A stretch of DNA of 64,000 bases from Naegleria gruberi (Eukaryota). Positions 45,189-59,100 of the stretch are shown here, in pieces (within the stretch, counting starts at the first letter, position 1; every line of letters begins with the position of its first letter). A program made the position numbers and the translations under genes. The DNA lies in assembly GCA_000004985.1 (NCBI GenBank), contig GG738858.1, one strand, 5' to 3'. The notes under the pieces are model-generated. The model was given only the letters and a program-made list of their open reading frames with translations. It searched no databases and was not told the origin of the DNA.

Positions 45189-46123
45189 ATGAAAATTTTG
45201 GCACGCGCACTTGTTGCCCTTCTCGTTTGCACCTTGTGGGTAAGCTCGACTTTGGCTGCCTCTTCTTGTTCAATTCAAACAACCGCTGGTAAAACCATTG
45301 AACTTTCCTCCGTTGATGTCGCTGGTACTGGTTATACTGTCGCTGGTACTGATGCTAACTGGAACTTTTACTTGTAAGTTTGTCTTTGTGTGTGGATAAA
45401 AAAATTAATAATAATAATATTTAATTGTGATGATGGCCATTATTTTGATAATTGTACACAAATAATAATATGATTGATGCGGATCTTTAATTTACGATGA
45501 TCTTCTTGTTTAGCAATATTTGTGGAGCTGTTACCAACCCAAGTACTGCTGTTTGTACTGTTGATGCTCAAGCATACCAATATGCCAAGCAATACAATCT
45601 CTGCTACCCAATAGGTCAAAAGGGTGTTCCAAAGATCTCTTTCCTCAACCCAGCCGATGAAAATGCTGGTGTTAAAGTTGTTCACGCTGGTATTCCTGCC
45701 ACTGATGGTGTTACCAGACAATTGGCTGTTTCCTTGACTTGTGACACTACTGCTGCTGATCGTCCAACTCTTACTTTCACTGGTGAAAGCAAGGAAGGTG
45801 GTATTATCACTTACGGATTCAGTGGTAAGACTAAGACTGCTTGTCCAGGTGCTGCTCCAGCTCCAACTCCAGAAGATGATTTGCCATTGGGTTGGTATGG
45901 TTTTGGTGGTCTCATCATGACTTTGGCTCTTGTTGCTTTCATTCTTTACTTCATCATTGGATTCCTTGTTTTGAAGTTCAAGATGCAAAAGACTGGTACT
46001 GAAGCTATTCCACAATTCGCCTTCTGGAAGGATTTGCCTTTCCTCTTCATTGATGGTGTTATGTTGCCAGTTGACCTCATCAAGGGTGCTATGGGTAAGA
46101 AGAATTACCAAGAAATGGCCTAA
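45189..46123 (+). CDS. type I membrane protein with mannose-6-phosphate-receptor-homology (MRH)-like lumenal domain, 2 exons (264 aa)
   Basis: join(45189..45373,45514..46123); the 140-nt intron has a GTAAGT donor and a TTGTTTAG acceptor. It has a signal peptide MKILARALVALLVCTLWVSSTLA, a Cys pattern like CD-MPR/Atg27 (SCSIQT...NWNFYFNICGAV...VCTV...CYP...LTCD...ACPG), a single TM (GGLIMTLALVAFILYFIIGFLVL) and a short cytosolic tail. The antisense ORF 45440..46111 is considered spurious. Confidence 0.55.
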
Positions 46124-46275: not shown

Positions 46276-46348
46276 GCCGACATAGCTCAGTTGGGAGAGC
46301 GTAAGACTGAAGATCTTAAGGTCCCTGGTTCGATCCCTGGTGTCGGCA
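46276..46348 (+). tRNA. tRNA-Phe (anticodon GAA)
   Basis: The 73-nt sequence is GCCGACATAGCTCAGTTGGGAGAGCGTAAGACTGAAGATCTTAAGGTCCCTGGTTCGATCCCTGGTGTCGGCA. The acceptor stem GCCGACA pairs with TGTCGGC, the D-arm is GCTC/GAGC, the anticodon stem is TAAGA/TCTTA with loop CTGAAGA, and the T-loop is TTCGATC. The T-stem CCTGG/CCTGG has one central T-T mismatch. It is strongly similar to canonical eukaryotic tRNA-Phe. Confidence 0.9.
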
Positions 46349-48555: not shown

Positions 48556-49692
48556 ATGGGACAATCACAACCGAGCTACCCGCCACCACTTGCAACAAAA
48601 TGTTCCGAAAATGAAAGATTGGCTGTGATGCAAAAATTGGGAAATTTTGAGATGGCTCCAATTATGGAATTTAAATACTATTTTAATAGGAAATACAAGA
48701 ATAATTATCAACATTCGGATGAGAGTTTAGTTTTCAATGATGAGAATTGTTCGATATTTGAGAGGGAATTACCTGAAGAAGTGTTTATTCACATTTTGAA
48801 ATTTTTAAATCATCGAGAATTAATCAAAATGAGAAGAGTTTGTACAAACTATGAAAGTTATTGGATTCAAAATTCGAAAGTGTGGAATGTAAGATCGTTC
48901 GAAACTGAAAAGGATGAACCAAACATGTTGTTCAAACCAGTTTTGAATTCGCCCATTGAATCCATCTCTTTTTATTACAAACACTTTCTTCCAACCATTG
49001 TAAATTCATTTTACAGAGGCAACACAATTTCATATAGAGAAAGAATCAAAACTATTCTTTTAGGAAGTGAACGATGTGGAAAATCTGAATTAATGAAATT
49101 GGTTATTAACAATTATCAAGATTTTAATCCATTACTGGAATACTCTCCAACTGATGCCCATCTTTACACACCATTAGAAATTATTCCATTCAAGACCTCT
49201 TCTGAAAGAGGAGATTTGTTATTACAATTTTGGGATAGTTCAGGTAAAGAAAAGAGAATTCCCTTTCTCAAACCATTATTAAGGGAGACGAGAATTTATA
49301 CATTTTGTTTTGATTTGAGCGATGTGAAATCTTTCTTTGAAATGAAAAGTAGAATTGAAACTTTTCAAGTGGAATATTTAAATTCTAATTCATTGAATGA
49401 GGAATTAAAAGAAAGTGGAGCTTGCATGTTGGTGATTGGAATGAAGAGAGATTTGGAGAGGAAAGTGAGTAAACTTGAAATTACTAAATATTTGGAAGAA
49501 TTGAGCAAAGTTAAAGATGGAATCTCAATTAAGAGTTTAAGAATTCAATATTTCGAGTTGAGTAGCAAACAGGATTCAAAGAAAGTATTGGAATTTCCAT
49601 TTATTTATGGGTTGACCATGATTGAAGAGCATATTCCACCAGAAGAGACATTAGAAATGATGGCAGCACACTTTATGAAACCTGCAAAATAA
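48556..49692 (+). CDS. F-box domain fused to a divergent Ras-superfamily (Rab-like) GTPase domain; N-myristoylation-type N-terminus
   Basis: 378-aa ORF with N-terminus MGQSQPS. The F-box is LPEEVFIHILKFLNHRELIKMRRVCTNYESYWIQNSKVW. The GTPase motifs are G1 ILLGSERCGKSELM, G3 WDSSGKE, G4-like VIGMKRDL and G5-like ELSSKQ. Confidence 0.6.
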   Translation: MGQSQPSYPPPLATKCSENERLAVMQKLGNFEMAPIMEFKYYFNRKYKNNYQHSDESLVFNDENCSIFERELPEEVFIHILKFLNHRELIKMRRVCTNYESYWIQNSKVWNVRSFETEKDEPNMLFKPVLNSPIESISFYYKHFLPTIVNSFYRGNTISYRERIKTILLGSERCGKSELMKLVINNYQDFNPLLEYSPTDAHLYTPLEIIPFKTSSERGDLLLQFWDSSGKEKRIPFLKPLLRETRIYTFCFDLSDVKSFFEMKSRIETFQVEYLNSNSLNEELKESGACMLVIGMKRDLERKVSKLEITKYLEELSKVKDGISIKSLRIQYFELSSKQDSKKVLEFPFIYGLTMIEEHIPPEETLEMMAAHFMKPAK

Positions 49693-49746
49693 TACTGTTG
49701 TAAATAAACTAACTTTTCACTTTCGAATAAAACAGATTGATGAAAC

Positions 49747-51009
49747 TTGTCAAAAAAAATGAATCCACATCAAAAACCGTCTACACTATCACCTCATAAT
49801 CAAGGAATACTTGTTGATGATATATTTTCCAATGACATTTGTTTTGAAATTTTATCATTTCTTGATTCTTGGTCAATTTTAAATTGTTCTTTAATTTCAA
49901 AACAATTTCGTCAAGTAATCAAGGAGGGAATAAAACTTTCTATTAATTTCCGACAAGAAGTTAACAGTGGAGGATTAGAAAAGCTTGGAAATAGTTCATT
50001 TATCGATAATATAATTTCATTGAAATTTGGAATAATTCCAAATCAATATAAGAAATTCTTTGATTGTTTGAGATTGATGCATCAATTGACCGATCTTTCA
50101 TTATCTAATTTTATATTTGCTACATATGCTGGTAAAAACAGTGAAATTACTGTTGAGCTAGCCAAATGCATCTGTCAATTGAAAAATTTAAAAAAACTTG
50201 ACGTTAGTTATAATTATCATCTTGAGAATGAAGTTGTTGAATTGATAAGTGAATTGAGAGAATTGAGAGAACTTAACATTAGATACTGTGATATTGGAGT
50301 AGAAGAGGTAAAATATCTCACTAAATTGGATAAATTGCATTCTCTGGATATTGGTATTAATCAAATATATGCAGACGGAGCTAAATTATTAAGTACAATG
50401 AAAAGTTTAACAAAGCTTGATGTGGCTGAGTGCGAAATTGGTGATGAGGGATGCCAGTCAATTACAGAGCTTTATCAATTGACTGATCTCAATATAAATG
50501 GTGATGGTATTGGTGTTGGGGGAGCTAACTGTATTGGTCAGATGAGGAATTTAAAAAGTCTCGATATTAGCAATAATTTCTTTGGAAATTATGGAGCAAA
50601 ATCAATAAGTGAGCTATCTCAATTAGAAATTCTTAATGTTTCATATAGTGACATTGATGAAGTGGGAGTTTATCAGTTACGCAAATTGAAAAATTTAACA
50701 TCTCTTTCCATTCATCATAATGAGATAACTGATGAAGGAACTAAATATATAGTAGAATTGGACCAATTAACTCATCTAGATATTAGCAACAATCAAATTG
50801 AAACAGAAGGAGCAAAATCTATTAGTGAAATGAGTCAATTAACCTCATTGAATATTAGTTCTAATATTATAGGTGACGAGGGAGCTCAATATATCAGTCA
50901 TTTAAAAAAACTAACATCACTAAATGTTAGCAAATGTAGAGTGAGTGAAGAAGGAGTTGAATCTATCAGAAAACAATTGAAACACTTGAAAACGCTTGAG
51001 GTAGAATAA
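49747..51009 (+). CDS. F-box-like/RNI-type LRR protein, divergent third paralog
   Basis: 420-aa ORF with an N-terminal F-box-like region, FSNDICFEILSFLDSWSILNCSLISKQFRQVI, followed by about 12 RNI-type LRRs (for example ISNNQIETEGAKSISEMSQLTSLN). It has no acidic tail. Confidence 0.7.
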   Translation: MSKKMNPHQKPSTLSPHNQGILVDDIFSNDICFEILSFLDSWSILNCSLISKQFRQVIKEGIKLSINFRQEVNSGGLEKLGNSSFIDNIISLKFGIIPNQYKKFFDCLRLMHQLTDLSLSNFIFATYAGKNSEITVELAKCICQLKNLKKLDVSYNYHLENEVVELISELRELRELNIRYCDIGVEEVKYLTKLDKLHSLDIGINQIYADGAKLLSTMKSLTKLDVAECEIGDEGCQSITELYQLTDLNINGDGIGVGGANCIGQMRNLKSLDISNNFFGNYGAKSISELSQLEILNVSYSDIDEVGVYQLRKLKNLTSLSIHHNEITDEGTKYIVELDQLTHLDISNNQIETEGAKSISEMSQLTSLNISSNIIGDEGAQYISHLKKLTSLNVSKCRVSEEGVESIRKQLKHLKTLEVE

Positions 51010-53195: not shown

Positions 53196-56100
53196 TTAAT
53201 TAACTAGTCCTATCGGAACATAGCAAACCAAACCATAAATACCTCCATCAGGAGTAGTAGTAGCCCACCAACCATATGTTGGATAAGATCCCATAAAGTA
53301 AGCATAGGTAATACTATCACCAGATGCTGGATAATAACTACTGTACCAATCCTTATAGACAATGGTACTTCCATCGGACCAAGTTGTGAAGGAGCCTTGG
53401 GAAATTTCATGTCCCTTAGTACCTAAGAAGAAGGCATTGGTTTCATTCTTTGGAAGGAGATTGTTGGCTAAGAATGTCTTTTCTGTGGCACTTTGAATTT
53501 GGACCAATGAAGCGTTTGGATGGAAATACTTGCACAAACTACTCATTGATTCAACGGCATAATAGTTTTGAAGTTTGGTAAAGTAATAACATCTTCCCAA
53601 TGATGTACTACAGCTCATCTTTCTATACCATGGATAATCAACCATGTTGACCTTTGGAGGTAGAGTTGAAGGAGCAGTAATGATACCTGATGGACCTGTA
53701 ATTGTTCCTTGAGAATATTGAGAACCACCAGCAAGGCCAAATTTGATAATACCTTCTGGAATGTCTCCTGCAATCTTGAGTGTGTAAATCTTGTAGGAAC
53801 CTGGTGCAATAGTGTATGAGCTAGGCAATGACAAGTAGGTGAAACCAGTGAGTCCAGTAATTTGATCAGCACCAATGTAAACAGGGAAGCTTGGTGAATA
53901 ATCATGGAAGGCATCTTGGTTGTATCCTGCTTGTAATTCGAGAGTGAATCTAGTAAGTGCAGGTGATCCAGTAGCAACACTAATATTGTATGTGAAAACA
54001 GTAACTGGAGAGGAAGCGTTCAAGAATGTGGCAGTAGAAGAGGTCTTACCCAAATATTTAACAGAGTAACCACTGCTAGCTAATGGAACGAGTACATTGG
54101 TCTTGGATGTGTCAACAATATTACATGAGTTATCAATAATGGTTTGGTAAATGTTACTCAAATCGTTCCAATTTACCAAGACAAGATTATTTTGATCATA
54201 GTTCATCTTTTGTACTTGAATTTGACCATAACTATCCGTTACAGCAGAGCCTATTCCGATAGCAAGCTGTCTCCAATTCCAAACTGAGCCATAGAGTGAC
54301 ATTTCAGCATTATTAGAGCCACCAATTGACCAAGAGTTAATATCAACTGATCTAACAGTGGCATCAGAACATGGATTACAACGAGATCTATCATCATACC
54401 ACGAGCAAACAGTACAATCTGCGCCTGGGAAGCGAGGGCTCTTACAATAGGATGGGGAAACACCATAGTTTCCAGGATTTGATGAATAGGTTGATCTACA
54501 GCTACCACAAGAGCATGGGTCATTTGAGAGACCATCAGTAATGTGAATCAATAACTTTTGAGAAATTGACTTTCTACCAGAGGCCAACATCATATTAACT
54601 GCAGTATTAATACCTGAAATTGAGTTGGTACCAGATTGAATTTGGGCCATATTCTTGATGGCAGTTAAAACACTAGATTGACTTGTACCAGACTTCAAAT
54701 CCAAGTGAGTTGTAATAGTTGAGGCAAATTGAATAATACCAATGTTTGTTCCAGTTGGAGAGATGTTTGATCCAAAGCCTGTTGTCAAATTGGAAGCAAA
54801 GTTCTTCATGTTAACAAAGTTATCAGCTGTAATACTTCCAGAACCGTCAATAACAAATATGATATCCAAGTTAAGACCGCATTGACACTTGGTGTATTGA
54901 ACTGAGACAACAGCTGATGCTGAGGTACCATCTTGATCTGATTGGATACTGTAAACAAACTTTTGAGTATTACAACTTCCAGTAACTGGATAAACTCTGA
55001 TAATTCTATTGTTGGCAGGATCGGCTGGGTTGAGGATGGCTGGAGTGCCTGATGTACAATATGAGGAATCACCTGATGGACAAGAAATTCCAGTGAAAGT
55101 GAATGTACCACCAAGAGAATCATAGTCATTGCTCAACAAACTTGATACAGAGATATCAATATAGGTATTGAATTGTGTTGATACAAAGTCATTGACAGCA
55201 ACAGGAGGAGAAGCAAGAGCTGAAATTCCAACTTGAACATTCTTAGTAATTGGATTTCTTGCATCAGAATCAGAAACAGCTAAAACAAAGTTACAACTTC
55301 CAAGGAATGTTGCTACTCTCAAAAACTTGACTTGATTGCTGGCAATTGTCAAGGATTGAAGAACGGTGCTATTACAAGTTCCAACATCTGCAATACTCTT
55401 CAAAACTAGAGTGTCTGCAGTGTCGGCATCCTTTGAAGATGAGAGAGAAATATAATCAAATGAAATATAATTATTACTAGCTCTAGAAATTGAATAGACA
55501 TAAGTGTAAGCATTCAAGGTTGGAGCTTGATTAGGTTGAGCAATAATAATCTTACAAATGGCAGTTTGTCCAGCAGTGTTTGTCAAAGAATAGGAAGCAT
55601 AACAATCACTATTTGATGATGAGGTACTTGCTGGAGTGTATGTCAATTTACCAGTAGAGGATGAGATGGAACCAACACCATTAAGAGTAGCAGTGTTAGT
55701 GATAGCCATTGTGACTGGTTCAGAACCAACCTTTGCTGTTAAACTTGTCTTTAAAGCATCTTCAAATTGAGTAGCAGCAGAATTCTTTGTAGTGGAAATT
55801 GTGTAATCAAGACATCCGAAAGAATTACCAGTGATTGTAACAGTGTAAGTGTAGGTTGAAGTTAATTGACCATCAGTCAAGGTGAAAGAGAATTGCAAAG
55901 TTCCCAAATAAGTAGTAGCATAAGTAAGCTTTACAGATCCATCAGAGTTCAACAAGACAGAGGCACCAGTGTTTTGAGTAATCATACTAACACTTGAAAC
56001 AGTAACTGTATCACCATCAGCATCACTTGCACCTGTCAATAGATCAGTGAAAGTATAAGTTGGATTGGAATAACTTCTTTCAATGGTGGTAGTCTTTGCA

Positions 56101-59100
56101 CTTCCAGTTGGAGGTGTATTTCTAATGACTACAGACATGGTAGCATAAGTTGCAACTTGAGCACCATCATAACAACTAAACTTAATGGAGTCTGTAACAT
56201 ATCGTGTTCCATTAGAAAGAGTGGTTGTGTAAGAAATTGAGGAGCTTGGTGTGTAAACAAGAGATCCAGTAGTGTAATCCGAAACAGTTGTTGTACCATA
56301 TGAACCTTGACCAACTCCAAACAAAGACAATGAATCGCTATCAGCATCATAACAGTATTGAGAAACAACATTTGTCAAAGACAAAGTGTTCTTCCAACCA
56401 ATAGTTTTAGAGAATGAAGTAGCTTGAGGAGCAGTATTGGTAAAAACAAGGTTAACAGTGGCAATATTAGAGGTGGCAATTTGATCAGTAATGGTGTATT
56501 GGAATGAATCAGTACCTGGACCATTAATGAAGGTATTCATATAGAAAACAGTTACCAAATCACTTTGTAAAACAAGGGCGGTATTACCTGTTGGCAATTG
56601 AGCACTACCAAAGTTAACATTATTCAAATTCAAAGAATTAGAACCCAAACTCATGATAACACCATACATGTTAACAACATTGAAGTTAAGTTGACCATAG
56701 GTAAGGACATGTCCATAGAATGTACCTTGAATACCTGCAGCGCCAACAATCCAGAAAACGTTCAAGTAACTAGCACCATTCTTGAAACTCCAACTAAAGT
56801 TAGCATTCAAATTTGTGGTGGCAACAAAGATAAAAAGACCACTTCCACTCAATTCAATTTTACCATTTCCATTGAGACCTTGAGAGAAACAATATACACC
56901 TGGAGTAAATGACAAAACACCTGAAGATGGGAAGTTTTGATCAAGAGAGGCAACACAAGACTTTTGTGAAAGATATTGGTAGAGATTTGAGGCAGATGTA
57001 ACAACAGATGAGTAGGCAGCGTTGTTGACACTCAAAGTACCAGTTGGTTTAAGAGCTTGAGCAGTGAAACCAGCAGTGGCAACGCTTCCAGGAACAACCA
57101 AATTGGCAAAGTTATTACAAATGGTTGAACCCTTAGAAATAACAATGTAATCTCCGATACCATTGTATGAACTGACTAAGCTTGATGGATATAACTTGTT
57201 AATATAAATATAATCACCATCAACATCATAATCGTTCAAAACAGGTTTCAAATACAAGGTATTATTGGTCCAGTGTTGAGTGAATGTATTATCAACAGCA
57301 ACAGGAGGAGTATTAGTAATGGTAATGGTAACAGTATTGGTAACACTTGAGAAACCATCAGTTACAACATAGGTGAATGAAGTAGTGAACCCAGCAGTTA
57401 GAGGAACTGGTGTGTACTTGACAAAAGTGGAATTAACAGAAGCAACAGCACCAGTATTTGGTTGAGTGAATGAAACAATGGTCAATGAATCACCATCAGC
57501 ATCAGTAACTCCAGACATCAAATCAATACTGAGGCCACTTTGAACCTTAGCCCAGTGACGACTGAATGTTAATGGAGTTGCTGTAGGAGCGCTATTGGAA
57601 ATAGTAACAAAGATTCCCTTTGATGCAGAAACTCCCATTCCATCAGTTACAGTATAGTTGAAGAATTGTGATGCAGAGTTTCCATTAGAATTGGTGAATG
57701 TGAATGATTTCTTGTCACCACTCAAAGCAACAGTACCTGCACTTGGATTAGTGAATGATGAAATAACAAGATAGTCTCCATCCTCAGTATCAGCATCAGT
57801 TGGCTTGAGAGAATCAGCTCTACCAATAACTGGAATAGAAATTGAGGAAGTGTGACCAGATACAACAATATCTTTAGCAACTGGAAGATTGTTATAGATA
57901 ACAATGCTGAATGTTGCACTTGAAGTGGACCACCCATCAGTGAATGAAACAGTAACGGAATCAGTACCAGTGTAAGCACTATTGACCTTATAGTTAATGG
58001 TGTTTCCTGAACCAAGAGAAGCAACACCAACCAGTGTCTTTGTGACAGCAGTTAAGGTAACAGCATCACCATCAGCATCCTTAAGATAGGAAGAAAGATC
58101 AATAACAGTATTACTCAAAACAGTTCTCCAGTGATATTTGAAAGCTGCAGTAGTATTGGCTGTTGGAACACTATTCAAAATTGTAATGGAAACAGTACCA
58201 GTGACTGTATCTCTTCCATCAGTGATAATATAACTGATTGGGTTGATACTACCAACAAAACCACTGGAAGGAGTGAATTTTACATTTCCAGAGCAAGTGA
58301 CACTACCTTGAGCTGCAGTAACAGATGAAGAGCATGATTGTAATGATAATGAATCTCCATTAGCATCTGAAGAAGCAGAAACAACTTCAAATGTTAAACC
58401 ATTCTTAGCTGAAGACCAAGAACCGACAAATGATTGTGAATTTGTTGTTGGAGCAGTATTGGTAACAGTAACAGTAACAGTTGATGTTGAAGTGGCAATC
58501 TCATCAGTGATTGTATAGTATACAGTATCTGTAGATGGAGCAGTTCTTGGATAGTAAGTAATGTTGGTTGAGGTAAATGTTGGTGACAAAGGAGCTAATG
58601 AACCATAAACATTAGTAACTCTCAATGGATCAGACTCAGCATCAGTATCGTTAGCAACAACATTCAAAGTGTAAGAAGCAACGTTCCAGTGAGTAGTGAG
58701 CTTATCTGGAACAGCTACTGGGGCAGTATTGTAAACAATCAAGTTGACAGTTGTGGTAACTTGACCGTTTGAAGCACCATCAGTAACAATGTACTTGAAT
58801 GAAAGTGAACCCACAAAGTTTCCAGAACCAAGGATTTTGACAGACTTGCTATCCAAAACAGTTACGGAACCAACACTTGGTTGAGAAGCAATTGAAACCA
58901 AACTCAATGAGTCGCCATCAGTATCATAATCAGCTGGAGCATAATTTAAGATATCAATTTCAATACCTGCCTTGAAAGTTCTCCATGGAACTGAAATAGT
59001 CTTGGTTTGAGAAGTTGGAGCGTTGTTTACAACAGTTACAGAGATTGAACTAGTTGAGCTCTTCATAGAGTCAGAAACTCTGTAGTTAGCAGTGTAAACA

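What the first reader, a model, noticed from the sequence alone, without database searches (positions are those of the whole stretch)
48556..49692. F-box domain fused to a divergent Ras-like GTPase domain with a myristoylation-type N-terminus
MGQSQPS has Gly2 and Ser6, a myristoylation consensus. It is followed by a clear F-box and then a GTPase-like domain with altered G3 (WDSSGKE rather than DTAGQE) and G4 (MKRD rather than NKxD). This suggests either a GTP-regulated SCF adaptor or a pseudo-GTPase scaffold. The gene lies directly upstream of another F-box gene.
Basis: partly seen in the sequence, partly recalled or inferred. Interest (0 to 1): 0.6.

Follow-up and report, generated by a model that had tools for sequence, protein, structure and literature searches.

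The report
Naegleria F-box–Rab-like GTPase gene
This is a real gene of the amoeba Naegleria gruberi that joins an F-box (a handle for ubiquitin-ligase machinery) to a divergent Rab-type GTPase switch, but this gene and its family were already catalogued in a 2021 paper and nobody has tested its function.

The parts
48556..49692 (+). Complete coding sequence (378 aa plus stop) of the F-box/Rab-like GTPase. It equals the corrected model of XP_002679216.1.
   Evidence: ORF list and translation. In-frame stop upstream and an A-rich AAAAAAAATG start context. Its residues 92-378 are 100% identical to the 287-aa NCBI model P0001, which starts at Met92. It is identical over its full length to the corrected sequence in Herman et al. 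2021 Table S8.
48556..48576 (+). N-terminal MGQSQPS. Gly2 is a candidate N-myristoylation site, but residue 6 is Pro.
   Evidence: Translation. 20 of 24 relatives start with MG and 13 of 24 fit the PROSITE-type pattern; this protein does not. pLDDT is below 50 for aa 1-17, i.e. a flexible tail.
48766..48861 (+). F-box domain (aa 71-102, ELPEEVFIHILKFLNHRELIKMRRVCTNYESY).
   Evidence: PF00646 scores 25.4 bits (cut-off 20.5) and PF12937 scores 25.1 bits (cut-off 24.3). 23 of 26 family members match PF00646. The helical hairpins have pLDDT 86-91.
48862..49032 (+). Family-specific linker (aa 103-159) between the F-box and the GTPase. It contains the conserved YW...LW motif, 'FKP', and a long helix (aa 133-149).
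   Evidence: Family alignment A2. The model has pLDDT 82-91 for most of it, and pTM 0.82 implies a fixed packing against the GTPase domain.
49033..49632 (+). Rab-like small-GTPase domain (aa 160-359).
49063..49086 (+). G1 / P-loop GSERCGKS (aa 170-177), canonical GxxxxGK[ST].
   Evidence: G170, G175 and K176 are the only invariant columns in the 26-sequence family alignment.
49141..49155 (+). Switch I region YSPTD (aa 196-200). Thr199 aligns with the conserved switch-I Thr. It is followed by a divergent stretch (DAHLYTPLE) that, with a three-residue insertion, replaces the family's IGVEF.
   Evidence: Family alignment. pLDDT is low (56-64) for aa 190-210.
49231..49251 (+). G3 / switch II WDSSGKE (aa 226-232). 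DxxG is kept and the catalytic Gln is replaced by Lys231.
   Evidence: The Gln position is K/H/S/D/E/N/G in the aligned family members. Gln is retained only in two fragments, P0018 and P0033.
49438..49452 (+). G4 GMKRD (aa 295-299). The Asn of NKxD is replaced by Met; Lys and Asp are kept.
   Evidence: The family uses [L/M/T/F]KxD/E and never Asn.
49558..49569 (+). G5 LSSK (aa 335-338), equivalent to SAK.
49759..51009 (+). Neighbouring gene, an F-box plus leucine-rich-repeat protein. It is context only and not part of the same unit.
   Evidence: F-box scores 26.2 bits and LRR_6 scores 115 bits. The likely start is the ATG at 49759 in the same A-rich context. No similarity to the GTPase gene by BLASTP (E = 12).

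Best explanation
The gene encodes one member of an expanded clade of divergent Rab-like GTPases that carry an N-terminal F-box. I found the clade in Naegleria gruberi, N. lovaniensis and Willaertia magna.

Shown here:
- A flexible N-terminal tail beginning Met-Gly.
- A bona fide F-box.
- A conserved helical linker that the model packs rigidly onto the next domain.
- A Rab-fold G domain that keeps every residue class needed to hold a guanine nucleotide and Mg2+: GxxxxGKS, switch-I Thr, DxxG, the K and D of G4, and SxK.
- The G domain lacks the catalytic Gln (Lys231), the G4 Asn (Met296) and any C-terminal prenylation cysteine.

Inferred mechanism:
- The F-box docks on Skp1 and so on Cul1-Rbx1.
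- The G domain sits where F-box proteins normally carry their substrate-binding module, and acts as the substrate or effector receptor.
- Partner binding, and hence ubiquitination, would depend on the nucleotide state.
- With no catalytic Gln and a hydrophobic residue in place of the G4 Asn, the domain is probably an atypical GTPase. It would hydrolyse poorly and/or exchange fast, and so be mostly GTP-bound. Control would then come from abundance and turnover rather than a classical GEF/GAP cycle. (Engineered Asn-to-Ile mutants at this position in Ras and Rab lower nucleotide affinity; this is from my own knowledge.)
- Membrane attachment, if any, would come from N-terminal acylation of Gly2 instead of C-terminal geranylgeranylation.
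For: - Identity and architecture. The identical corrected model is listed as 'Rab / F-box' in Herman et al. 2021 Table S8. The accompanying text proposes GTPase-dependent ubiquitination.
- Rab affinity: the family profile's top 60 PDB hits are all Rabs, with Rab1A at 2e-31.
- Family: an exhaustive profile search finds about 25 collinear F-box-to-GTPase relatives. The named ones come from N. gruberi, N. lovaniensis and Willaertia magna. 23 of 26 match F-box and 25 of 26 match Ras.
- Motif conservation: the G and GK of the P-loop are invariant. The switch-I Thr, DxxG, xKxD/E and SxK are mostly kept. No full-length member has Gln after DxxG or Asn in G4.
- Membrane anchor: 20 of 24 start with MG and 13 of 24 fit the myristoylation pattern. 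Several have adjacent Cys clusters (MGQSISCC..., MGQLCCG...). None has a CaaX or CC C-terminus.
Against: - No biochemical evidence exists for Skp1 binding, nucleotide binding, acylation or any substrate.
- This paralogue's own N-terminus (Pro6) fails the classical NMT pattern.
- Its switch I is the most divergent in the family and is modelled with low confidence. This particular copy could therefore have lost normal effector or nucleotide coupling.
- The family evolves by rapid birth and death with pseudogenes, and no close orthologue (above about 45% identity) of this copy was found.
- The confident packing of the F-box and linker against the G domain (pTM 0.82) could not be inspected, so I do not know whether the Skp1-binding face is free.
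Confidence: 0.5

Rival explanations
1. The F-box is a self-turnover or regulatory handle. The protein would be a short-lived Rab-like signalling GTPase whose own abundance is set through SCF-dependent auto-ubiquitination. The G domain would act on effectors in the usual way and would not present substrates.
For: The only experimentally studied F-box-GTPase fusion, trypanosome TbFRP, is rapidly cleaved or turned over. Its authors link the F-box to that instability. Atypical GTPases that lack the catalytic Gln are typically controlled by abundance (own knowledge). The catalytic Gln is lost here.
Against: The G domain occupies the position of a substrate-binding module, and the linker is conserved and rigidly packed. 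That fits an integrated receptor. Auto-ubiquitination and substrate presentation are not mutually exclusive. There are no data for Naegleria.
Confidence: 0.2
2. Pseudo-GTPase scaffold. The Rab-like domain no longer binds or responds to nucleotide and serves only as a static protein-binding surface on an F-box protein.
For: Catalytic Gln is replaced by Lys and the G4 Asn by Met. Asn-to-Ile at this position in Ras and Rab strongly lowers nucleotide affinity (own knowledge). Switch I in this copy is divergent, has an insertion and is poorly modelled. Kinetoplastid FRPs have lost G4 altogether (VCGLIPP), which shows that such fusions can decay that way.
Against: The G and GK of the P-loop are invariant across 26 diverged sequences. 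DxxG, the G4 K and D, and the G5 SxK are retained in this protein and in most relatives. That conservation is hard to explain without nucleotide binding. Several bona fide GTPases use non-Asn residues in G4 (dynamin TKxD, Rag HKxD, septin AKxD; own knowledge).
Confidence: 0.15
3. Non-SCF Skp1 complex in membrane traffic. The F-box binds Skp1 without Cul1, as in yeast Rcy1, and the protein works as a membrane-anchored Rab-like trafficking factor rather than as an E3 ligase subunit.
For: Rab-type G domain. A probable N-terminal lipid anchor in the family. Precedent of Rcy1-Skp1 in endosome recycling (own knowledge).
Against: There is no evidence for or against Cul1 association. No sequence similarity to Rcy1 was seen in any search.
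Confidence: 0.08
4. An intact-looking but functionally drifting paralogue in a birth-and-death family, with no specific role.
For: The family shows lineage-specific expansion with pseudogenes. This copy has no close orthologue. It has the most divergent switch I and a non-consensus N-terminus.
Against: A 378-codon open frame in 32% GC DNA (p about 2.5e-14 by chance). All core motifs are intact. The curators did not flag it as a pseudogene. The N-terminal nonapeptide MGQSQPSYP is identical in a paralogue that is only about 42% identical overall, which argues for selection.
Confidence: 0.07

Closest known systems
Naegleria divergent Rab-like clades with N-terminal F-box (Herman et al. 2021, BMC Biol 19:142, Additional files 4 and 10)
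   Same: This is the same gene. The 378-aa sequence is listed verbatim as 'Rab', ID XP_002679216.1* (manually corrected model), additional domain 'F-box', not flagged as a pseudogene, and with no orthologue outside Heterolobosea. The text describes three such clades, their birth-and-death evolution, and the idea of GTPase-dependent ubiquitination.
   Different: In the parts I read, the paper says nothing about four points: the near-universal Met-Gly start, the absence of prenylation motifs in this clade, the loss of the catalytic Gln and G4 Asn, or relatives in Willaertia magna. It describes the clades as lacking discernible close relatives outside Naegleria.
Euglenozoan FRP (TbFRP, Tb927.7.3790): FYVE - F-box - Ras-like GTPase (PMC3593210)
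   Same: Same order of an F-box followed by a linker and a C-terminal Rab-like G domain. [quoted passage not shown] Euglena FRP even has G4 'GLKGD' and 'FFDL', like the Naegleria family's 'GLKSD' and 'CFDL'. Both lineages belong to Discoba (own knowledge). Euglena FRP aligns collinearly to the family profile from the F-box to past G4 (42.6 bits).
   Different: FRP has an N-terminal FYVE domain that binds PI3P. The Naegleria protein has no FYVE domain and instead a short Met-Gly tail. Kinetoplastid FRPs have lost G4. FRP G domains score equally weakly against the family profile and a canonical Rab profile (difference -8.7 to +5.5 bits), so specific common ancestry is not demonstrated. The FRP authors reported no Naegleria orthologue.
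RhoBTB (atypical Rho GTPase fused to BTB domains, Cul3 adaptor)
   Same: It works alike in principle: an atypical, hydrolysis-deficient small-GTPase domain is fused to a cullin-recruiting module (own knowledge). RhoBTB is also present in Naegleria, and Herman et al. discuss it together with the F-box fusions.
   Different: The cullin handle differs (BTB to Cul3 versus F-box to Skp1-Cul1). The GTPase family differs (Rho versus Rab-like). The domain order is opposite (GTPase at the N-terminus in RhoBTB). No sequence relationship beyond the shared G fold.
Canonical Rab GTPases (Rab1, Rab3, Rab6, Rab9)
   Same: Best sequence and structure matches. Same G-domain topology.
   Different: About 160 aa of N-terminal extension with an F-box. 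Catalytic Gln replaced by Lys. NKxD changed to MKxD. No C-terminal CC/CxC/CaaX motif. Canonical Rabs score 48-121 bits better on a Rab profile than on the family profile, whereas held-out family members score 8-56 bits better on the family profile.

Membership tests
Ras-superfamily small GTPase (Rab-like) | Ras-like P-loop NTPase fold (six-stranded sheet, five helices, order b1-a1-b2-b3-a2-b4-a3-b5-a4-b6-a5) | tested here: met
Ras-superfamily small GTPase (Rab-like) | G1 P-loop GxxxxGK[ST] | tested here: met
   GSERCGKS at aa 170-177. G170, G175 and K176 are invariant in the family.
Ras-superfamily small GTPase (Rab-like) | G3 DxxGQ with catalytic Gln | tested here: not met
   WDSSGKE: DxxG is present but Gln is replaced by Lys231.
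Ras-superfamily small GTPase (Rab-like) | G4 NKxD | tested here: not met
   GMKRD: Asn is replaced by Met296, while Lys297 and Asp299 are kept. The family uses [L/M/T/F]KxD/E.
Ras-superfamily small GTPase (Rab-like) | G5 SAK-type motif | tested here: met
   LSSK at aa 335-338.
Ras-superfamily small GTPase (Rab-like) | Pfam Ras family match above the gathering score; closest relatives are Rabs | tested here: met
   PF00071 scores 31 bits against a cut-off of 21.6. The top 60 PDB profile hits are all Rabs.
Ras-superfamily small GTPase (Rab-like) | C-terminal Cys prenylation motif (CC, CxC, CaaX) typical of Rabs | tested here: not met
   The C-terminus is ...AHFMKPAK. There is no Cys in the last 5 residues here or in 22 of 24 relatives, and no CaaX or CC anywhere.
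Ras-superfamily small GTPase (Rab-like) | Guanine-nucleotide binding and hydrolysis | not testable with these tools
   Needs recombinant protein.
F-box proteins (SCF substrate receptors) | F-box motif recognised by curated profiles | tested here: met
   PF00646 scores 25.4 bits (cut-off 20.5) and PF12937 scores 25.1 bits (cut-off 24.3), at aa 71-102. 23 of 26 relatives match.
F-box proteins (SCF substrate receptors) | A protein-interaction domain C-terminal to the F-box | tested here: met
   The Rab-like G domain occupies that position. That it binds substrates is inference.
F-box proteins (SCF substrate receptors) | Binding to Skp1 and assembly with Cul1 | not testable with these tools
   No complex prediction or experiment was available.
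Naegleria F-box/Rab-like clade (Herman et al. 2021) | Listed in the curated inventory with a conserved N-terminal extension and F-box | tested here: met
   Identical 378-aa sequence under XP_002679216.1* marked 'F-box'. It aligns collinearly with about 25 relatives.
Euglenozoan FRP | N-terminal FYVE zinc finger | tested here: not met
   No FYVE hit at E <= 1. The N-terminal 70 aa has only two Cys.
Euglenozoan FRP | F-box between the N-terminal targeting element and a C-terminal Ras-like domain | tested here: met
   Euglena FRP aligns collinearly to the family profile.
Euglenozoan FRP | G domain specifically related to FRP G domains rather than to Rabs in general | tested here: inconclusive
   For FRPs, family-profile minus Rab-profile score is -8.7 to +5.5 bits. 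Held-out family members give +8 to +56 and canonical Rabs give -48 to -121. The FRP sequences were rebuilt from a PDF alignment with OCR errors.
N-myristoylated proteins | Gly at position 2 | tested here: met
   MGQSQPS. 20 of 24 relatives start with MG.
N-myristoylated proteins | Small uncharged residue (S/T/A/G/C/N) at position 6, not Pro at 7 (PROSITE-type pattern) | tested here: not met
   Residue 6 is Pro. 13 of 24 relatives do fit the pattern.
N-myristoylated proteins | Actual myristate attachment by NMT | not testable with these tools
   Needs metabolic labelling or an in vitro NMT assay.

The most novel reading that the evidence does not exclude
The clade may be a set of lipid-anchored SCF substrate receptors whose target recognition is gated by the nucleotide state of a built-in Rab-like switch. 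That would be a GTP-controlled E3 ligase at membranes. The clade may also share ancestry with euglenozoan FRP, with an N-terminal acyl anchor in Naegleria doing the job of the FYVE domain. In that case an F-box-Rab fusion would be an ancient Discoba invention, not a Naegleria curiosity.
Probability: 0.2. Interest if true: 0.65.

Novelty: already known. Interest (0 to 1): 0.25.

Why it matters
F-box-GTPase fusions suggest a direct wiring between small-GTPase switches and cullin-RING ubiquitin ligases, and this has not been studied biochemically in any organism. If the G domain gates substrate recruitment, that would be a new mode of E3 regulation. It would also help explain why Naegleria carries more than 350 Ras-superfamily genes.

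For this locus the practical value is modest:
- It confirms a published re-annotation.
- It shows that the RefSeq model (287 aa, starting at Met92) still lacks the F-box.
- It adds family-level features that make concrete experiments possible: a Gly2 anchor instead of prenylation, systematic loss of the catalytic Gln and G4 Asn, and presence in Willaertia.

Tried and rejected
1. The first AF2 run, with only four sequences, gave pLDDT 41 and was unusable. It was replaced by a 26-sequence alignment.
2. Word-indexed homologue searches with the protein and with a four-sequence profile found only the same four proteins. The exhaustive profile search was needed to see the family.
3. High-scoring multi-stretch hits (P0008, P0011, P0012 and others) looked like possible multidomain relatives or FRPs. 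Pfam shows they are two to four canonical Rab domains in tandem, so they are irrelevant.
4. I tested whether the family is the missing Naegleria counterpart of FRP. Collinear alignment and shared G3/G4 peculiarities with Euglena FRP are suggestive. The discriminative profile test is flat, so the claim is not made.
5. I tested the idea that the two adjacent F-box genes are tandem duplicates or a conserved pair. It is rejected: no similarity, and the loci of two relatives have other neighbours. Look-ups for the two closest paralogues returned nothing.
6. Literature searches for other F-box-small-GTPase fusions found nothing beyond FRP and the Naegleria inventory.
7. The pseudogene reading was considered and judged unlikely.

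Full report
**What is there**

The window is Naegleria gruberi nuclear DNA. The product of the flagged ORF is 100% identical, over residues 92-378, to an NCBI "predicted protein [Naegleria gruberi]" of 287 aa (P0001).

The ORF runs from 48556 to 49692 on the + strand and encodes 378 aa. Its ATG sits in an A-rich AAAAAAAATG context, with an in-frame TAA three codons upstream. No intron is needed. At the local base composition, an open frame of this length has a chance probability of about 2.5e-14. No ORF of 60 aa or more overlaps it on the other strand.

**Check of each stated feature**

- Pfam finds an F-box at aa 71-102. PF00646 scores 25.4 bits against a cut-off of 20.5, and PF12937 scores 25.1 against 24.3.
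- Pfam finds a Ras-family domain at aa 165-341. PF00071 scores 31 bits against a cut-off of 21.6, and Arf scores 28.7.
- The remaining nucleotide-binding motifs are canonical: G1 GSERCGKS, a Thr in switch I (T199 by family alignment), and G5 LSSK.
- The downstream gene (ATG 49759 to 51009) is an F-box protein with leucine-rich repeats.
- One detail is wrong. The N-terminus is M1 G2 Q3 S4 Q5 P6 S7, so residue 6 is Pro, not Ser. The PROSITE-type N-myristoylation pattern is not satisfied by this protein.

A first AlphaFold run with four sequences was poor (pLDDT 41). With a 26-sequence family alignment the model is confident, at mean pLDDT 82.4 and pTM 0.82. Only the first 17 residues have pLDDT below 50, and the switch-I stretch at aa 190-210 is modelled at low confidence (pLDDT 56-64).

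Residues about 160-359 form the canonical small-GTPase topology. Three searches agree on this:
- Foldseek against the PDB returns Rab9A, Rab43, Rab1, Rab11 and KRAS, with probability 1.00 and target-normalised TM-scores of 0.77-0.82.
- A profile of the family searched against all PDB sequences gives Rab1A at 2e-31, and the best 60 hits are all Rabs.

The GTPase assignment therefore stands, and it is specifically Rab-like.

**The family**

An exhaustive profile search of 1.84 billion representative proteins finds about 25 proteins that align collinearly from the F-box through the G domain. The named ones come from N. gruberi, N. lovaniensis and Willaertia magna. Others come from unnamed metagenome assemblies. 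Across the 26-sequence alignment, 23 match Pfam F-box and 25 match Ras.

Family-wide features:
- The G and GK of the P-loop are the only invariant columns.
- The switch-I Thr, DxxG, the K and D/E of G4, and SxK are mostly retained.
- The catalytic Gln after DxxG is replaced in every full-length member, by K, H, S, D, E, N or G. Gln survives only in two fragments, P0018 and P0033.
- The first G4 position is L, M, T or F, and never Asn.
- No member has a CaaX, CC or CxC C-terminus.
- 20 of 24 non-redundant members begin Met-Gly, and 13 of 24 fit the myristoylation pattern. Several have Cys clusters next to Gly2 (MGQSISCC..., MGQLCCG...), as expected for dual acylation.

The window protein shares the nonapeptide MGQSQPSYP with a paralogue that is only about 42% identical overall. 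This argues that the N-terminus is under selection even though it departs from the textbook pattern.

**It is already known**

Herman et al. 2021 (BMC Biol 19:142, PMC8296547) manually re-annotated all Ras-superfamily genes of N. gruberi. Their Table S8 contains the identical 378-aa sequence under "Rab", ID XP_002679216.1* (corrected model), additional domain "F-box". It is not flagged as a pseudogene and has no orthologue outside Heterolobosea.

[quoted passage not shown] It also notes their birth-and-death evolution, notes that the F-box is the most frequent extra domain on Naegleria GTPases (Rab, Rho, Ran, G-alpha), and suggests "GTPase-dependent ubiquitination".

In the parts I read, the paper does not mention:
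- the Met-Gly start;
- the absence of prenylation motifs in this clade;
- the systematic loss of the catalytic Gln and G4 Asn;
- the Willaertia relatives.

The RefSeq model itself is still the truncated 287-aa version that starts at Met92 and lacks most of the F-box.

**Relation to trypanosome FRP**

The only experimentally studied F-box-GTPase fusion I found is TbFRP. It has the order FYVE - F-box - Ras-like GTPase and is restricted to Euglenozoa. Its authors reported no Naegleria orthologue.

I rebuilt FRP sequences from the paper's supplementary alignment. Several features resemble the Naegleria family:
- Euglena FRP aligns to the Naegleria family profile as one collinear stretch from the F-box to beyond G4 (42.6 bits).
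- It shares the family's oddities: FDASGD with no Gln, G4 GLKGD, and FFDL in strand 4.
- Kinetoplastid FRPs, by contrast, have lost G4 altogether.

A discriminative test gives no support for specific relatedness. FRP G domains score about equally, and weakly, on the family profile and on a canonical-Rab profile (difference -8.7 to +5.5 bits). Held-out family members score +8 to +56, canonical Rabs -48 to -121, and another Naegleria F-box-Rab clade -22 to -38. Common ancestry is possible but not shown. FRP is best treated as an analogue.

**Neighbourhood**

- The two adjacent F-box genes share no detectable similarity (BLASTP E = 12).
- A relative in N. lovaniensis has a second F-box-Ras gene about 5 kb away but no gene with an LRR hit nearby. 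An environmental relative sits next to G-alpha fragments.
- The adjacency in this window therefore looks incidental in a genome rich in F-box genes.
- Flanking genes are an MFS transporter and an NHL-repeat protein.

**How it most likely works**

Shown: the architecture, the fold, the motif pattern and the family conservation.

Inferred: the F-box recruits Skp1-Cul1, and the G domain takes the place of the usual substrate-binding module. Partner recognition could then depend on nucleotide state. Loss of the catalytic Gln, and a hydrophobic residue in place of the G4 Asn, point to an atypical GTPase. Asn-to-Ile changes at that position in Ras and Rab lower nucleotide affinity (established knowledge; not tested here). 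Such a GTPase would be poorly hydrolysing and perhaps fast-exchanging, and would be controlled by abundance rather than by a GEF/GAP cycle. This is conceptually like RhoBTB, where an atypical Rho domain is fused to a Cul3-recruiting BTB module. N-terminal acylation would replace C-terminal prenylation as the membrane anchor.

The rivals are:
- an F-box used for self-turnover, as proposed for TbFRP;
- a nucleotide-blind pseudo-GTPase scaffold;
- a non-SCF Skp1 complex of the Rcy1 type;
- a drifting paralogue with no specific role.

None can be excluded without biochemistry. The invariant P-loop and the retained G3, G4 and G5 contacts argue against the pseudo-GTPase and drifting-paralogue readings.

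**Verdict**

The gene and its family are already catalogued, so novelty is "already known". Interest is low to moderate and lies mainly in the untested mechanism of the whole F-box-GTPase class.

Noticed in passing
window 53196-63965 (-): A single 3589-aa ORF with 16 bacterial Ig (Big_9) domains, 8 Cadherin_4 domains, 7 Cadherin_5 domains and a VWA domain. This is a giant bacterial-type adhesin-like protein in a Naegleria contig. Local GC is 0.37-0.385 against 0.30-0.35 elsewhere. It could be a horizontally acquired or strongly expanded surface protein.
   Followed up: partly
window 48556-48828 (aa 1-91 of the gene): The public NCBI/RefSeq model of this gene (P0001, 287 aa) starts at internal Met92, so it lacks the Met-Gly N-terminus and most of the F-box. 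The NCBI model of the closest paralogue (P0002, 321 aa) also lacks about 50 residues of the linker compared with the corrected sequence in Herman et al. Table S8.
   Followed up: yes
window 46276-46348 (+): A tRNA-Phe (GAA) gene lies between an ATG27/mannose-6-phosphate-receptor-like gene (45497-46123) and the MFS transporter gene.
   Followed up: no
window 49693-49758: The intergenic spacer to the next gene is only 66 nt. Both genes start in the same AAAAAAAATG context. The neighbour's real start is probably ATG 49759 rather than the TTG at 49747 reported by the ORF tool.
   Followed up: partly
L002 6001-7074 and 11845-12969 (Naegleria lovaniensis PYSW02000003.1): Two F-box + Ras genes lie within 6 kb of each other. 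This fits local duplication driving the family's expansion.
   Followed up: no
L001 5199-6401 (environmental contig ERZ27315067 k141_397194): Three short adjacent gene calls all hit the G-alpha family. They are probably one G-alpha gene split by introns or frameshifts, and lie about 4 kb from a family member.
   Followed up: no
Supplementary alignment of PMC3593210 (no window coordinates): Euglena gracilis FRP keeps a G4-like 'GLKGD', whereas all kinetoplastid FRPs have 'VCGL/F/I...' with no K/D. This suggests that kinetoplastid FRP G domains have lost guanine specificity. I saw no discussion of this in the passages of the paper I read.
   Followed up: partly
Proteins P0062, P0070, P0101 (Willaertia magna KAL9641540 and KAL9650264; P0101 source not looked up): P0062, P0070 and P0101 carry Cys clusters right after Gly2 (MGQSISCCDYCKMCCCFFC, MGQLCCG, MGQSNMCC). 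This suggests dual myristoyl/palmitoyl anchoring in that branch.
   Followed up: no
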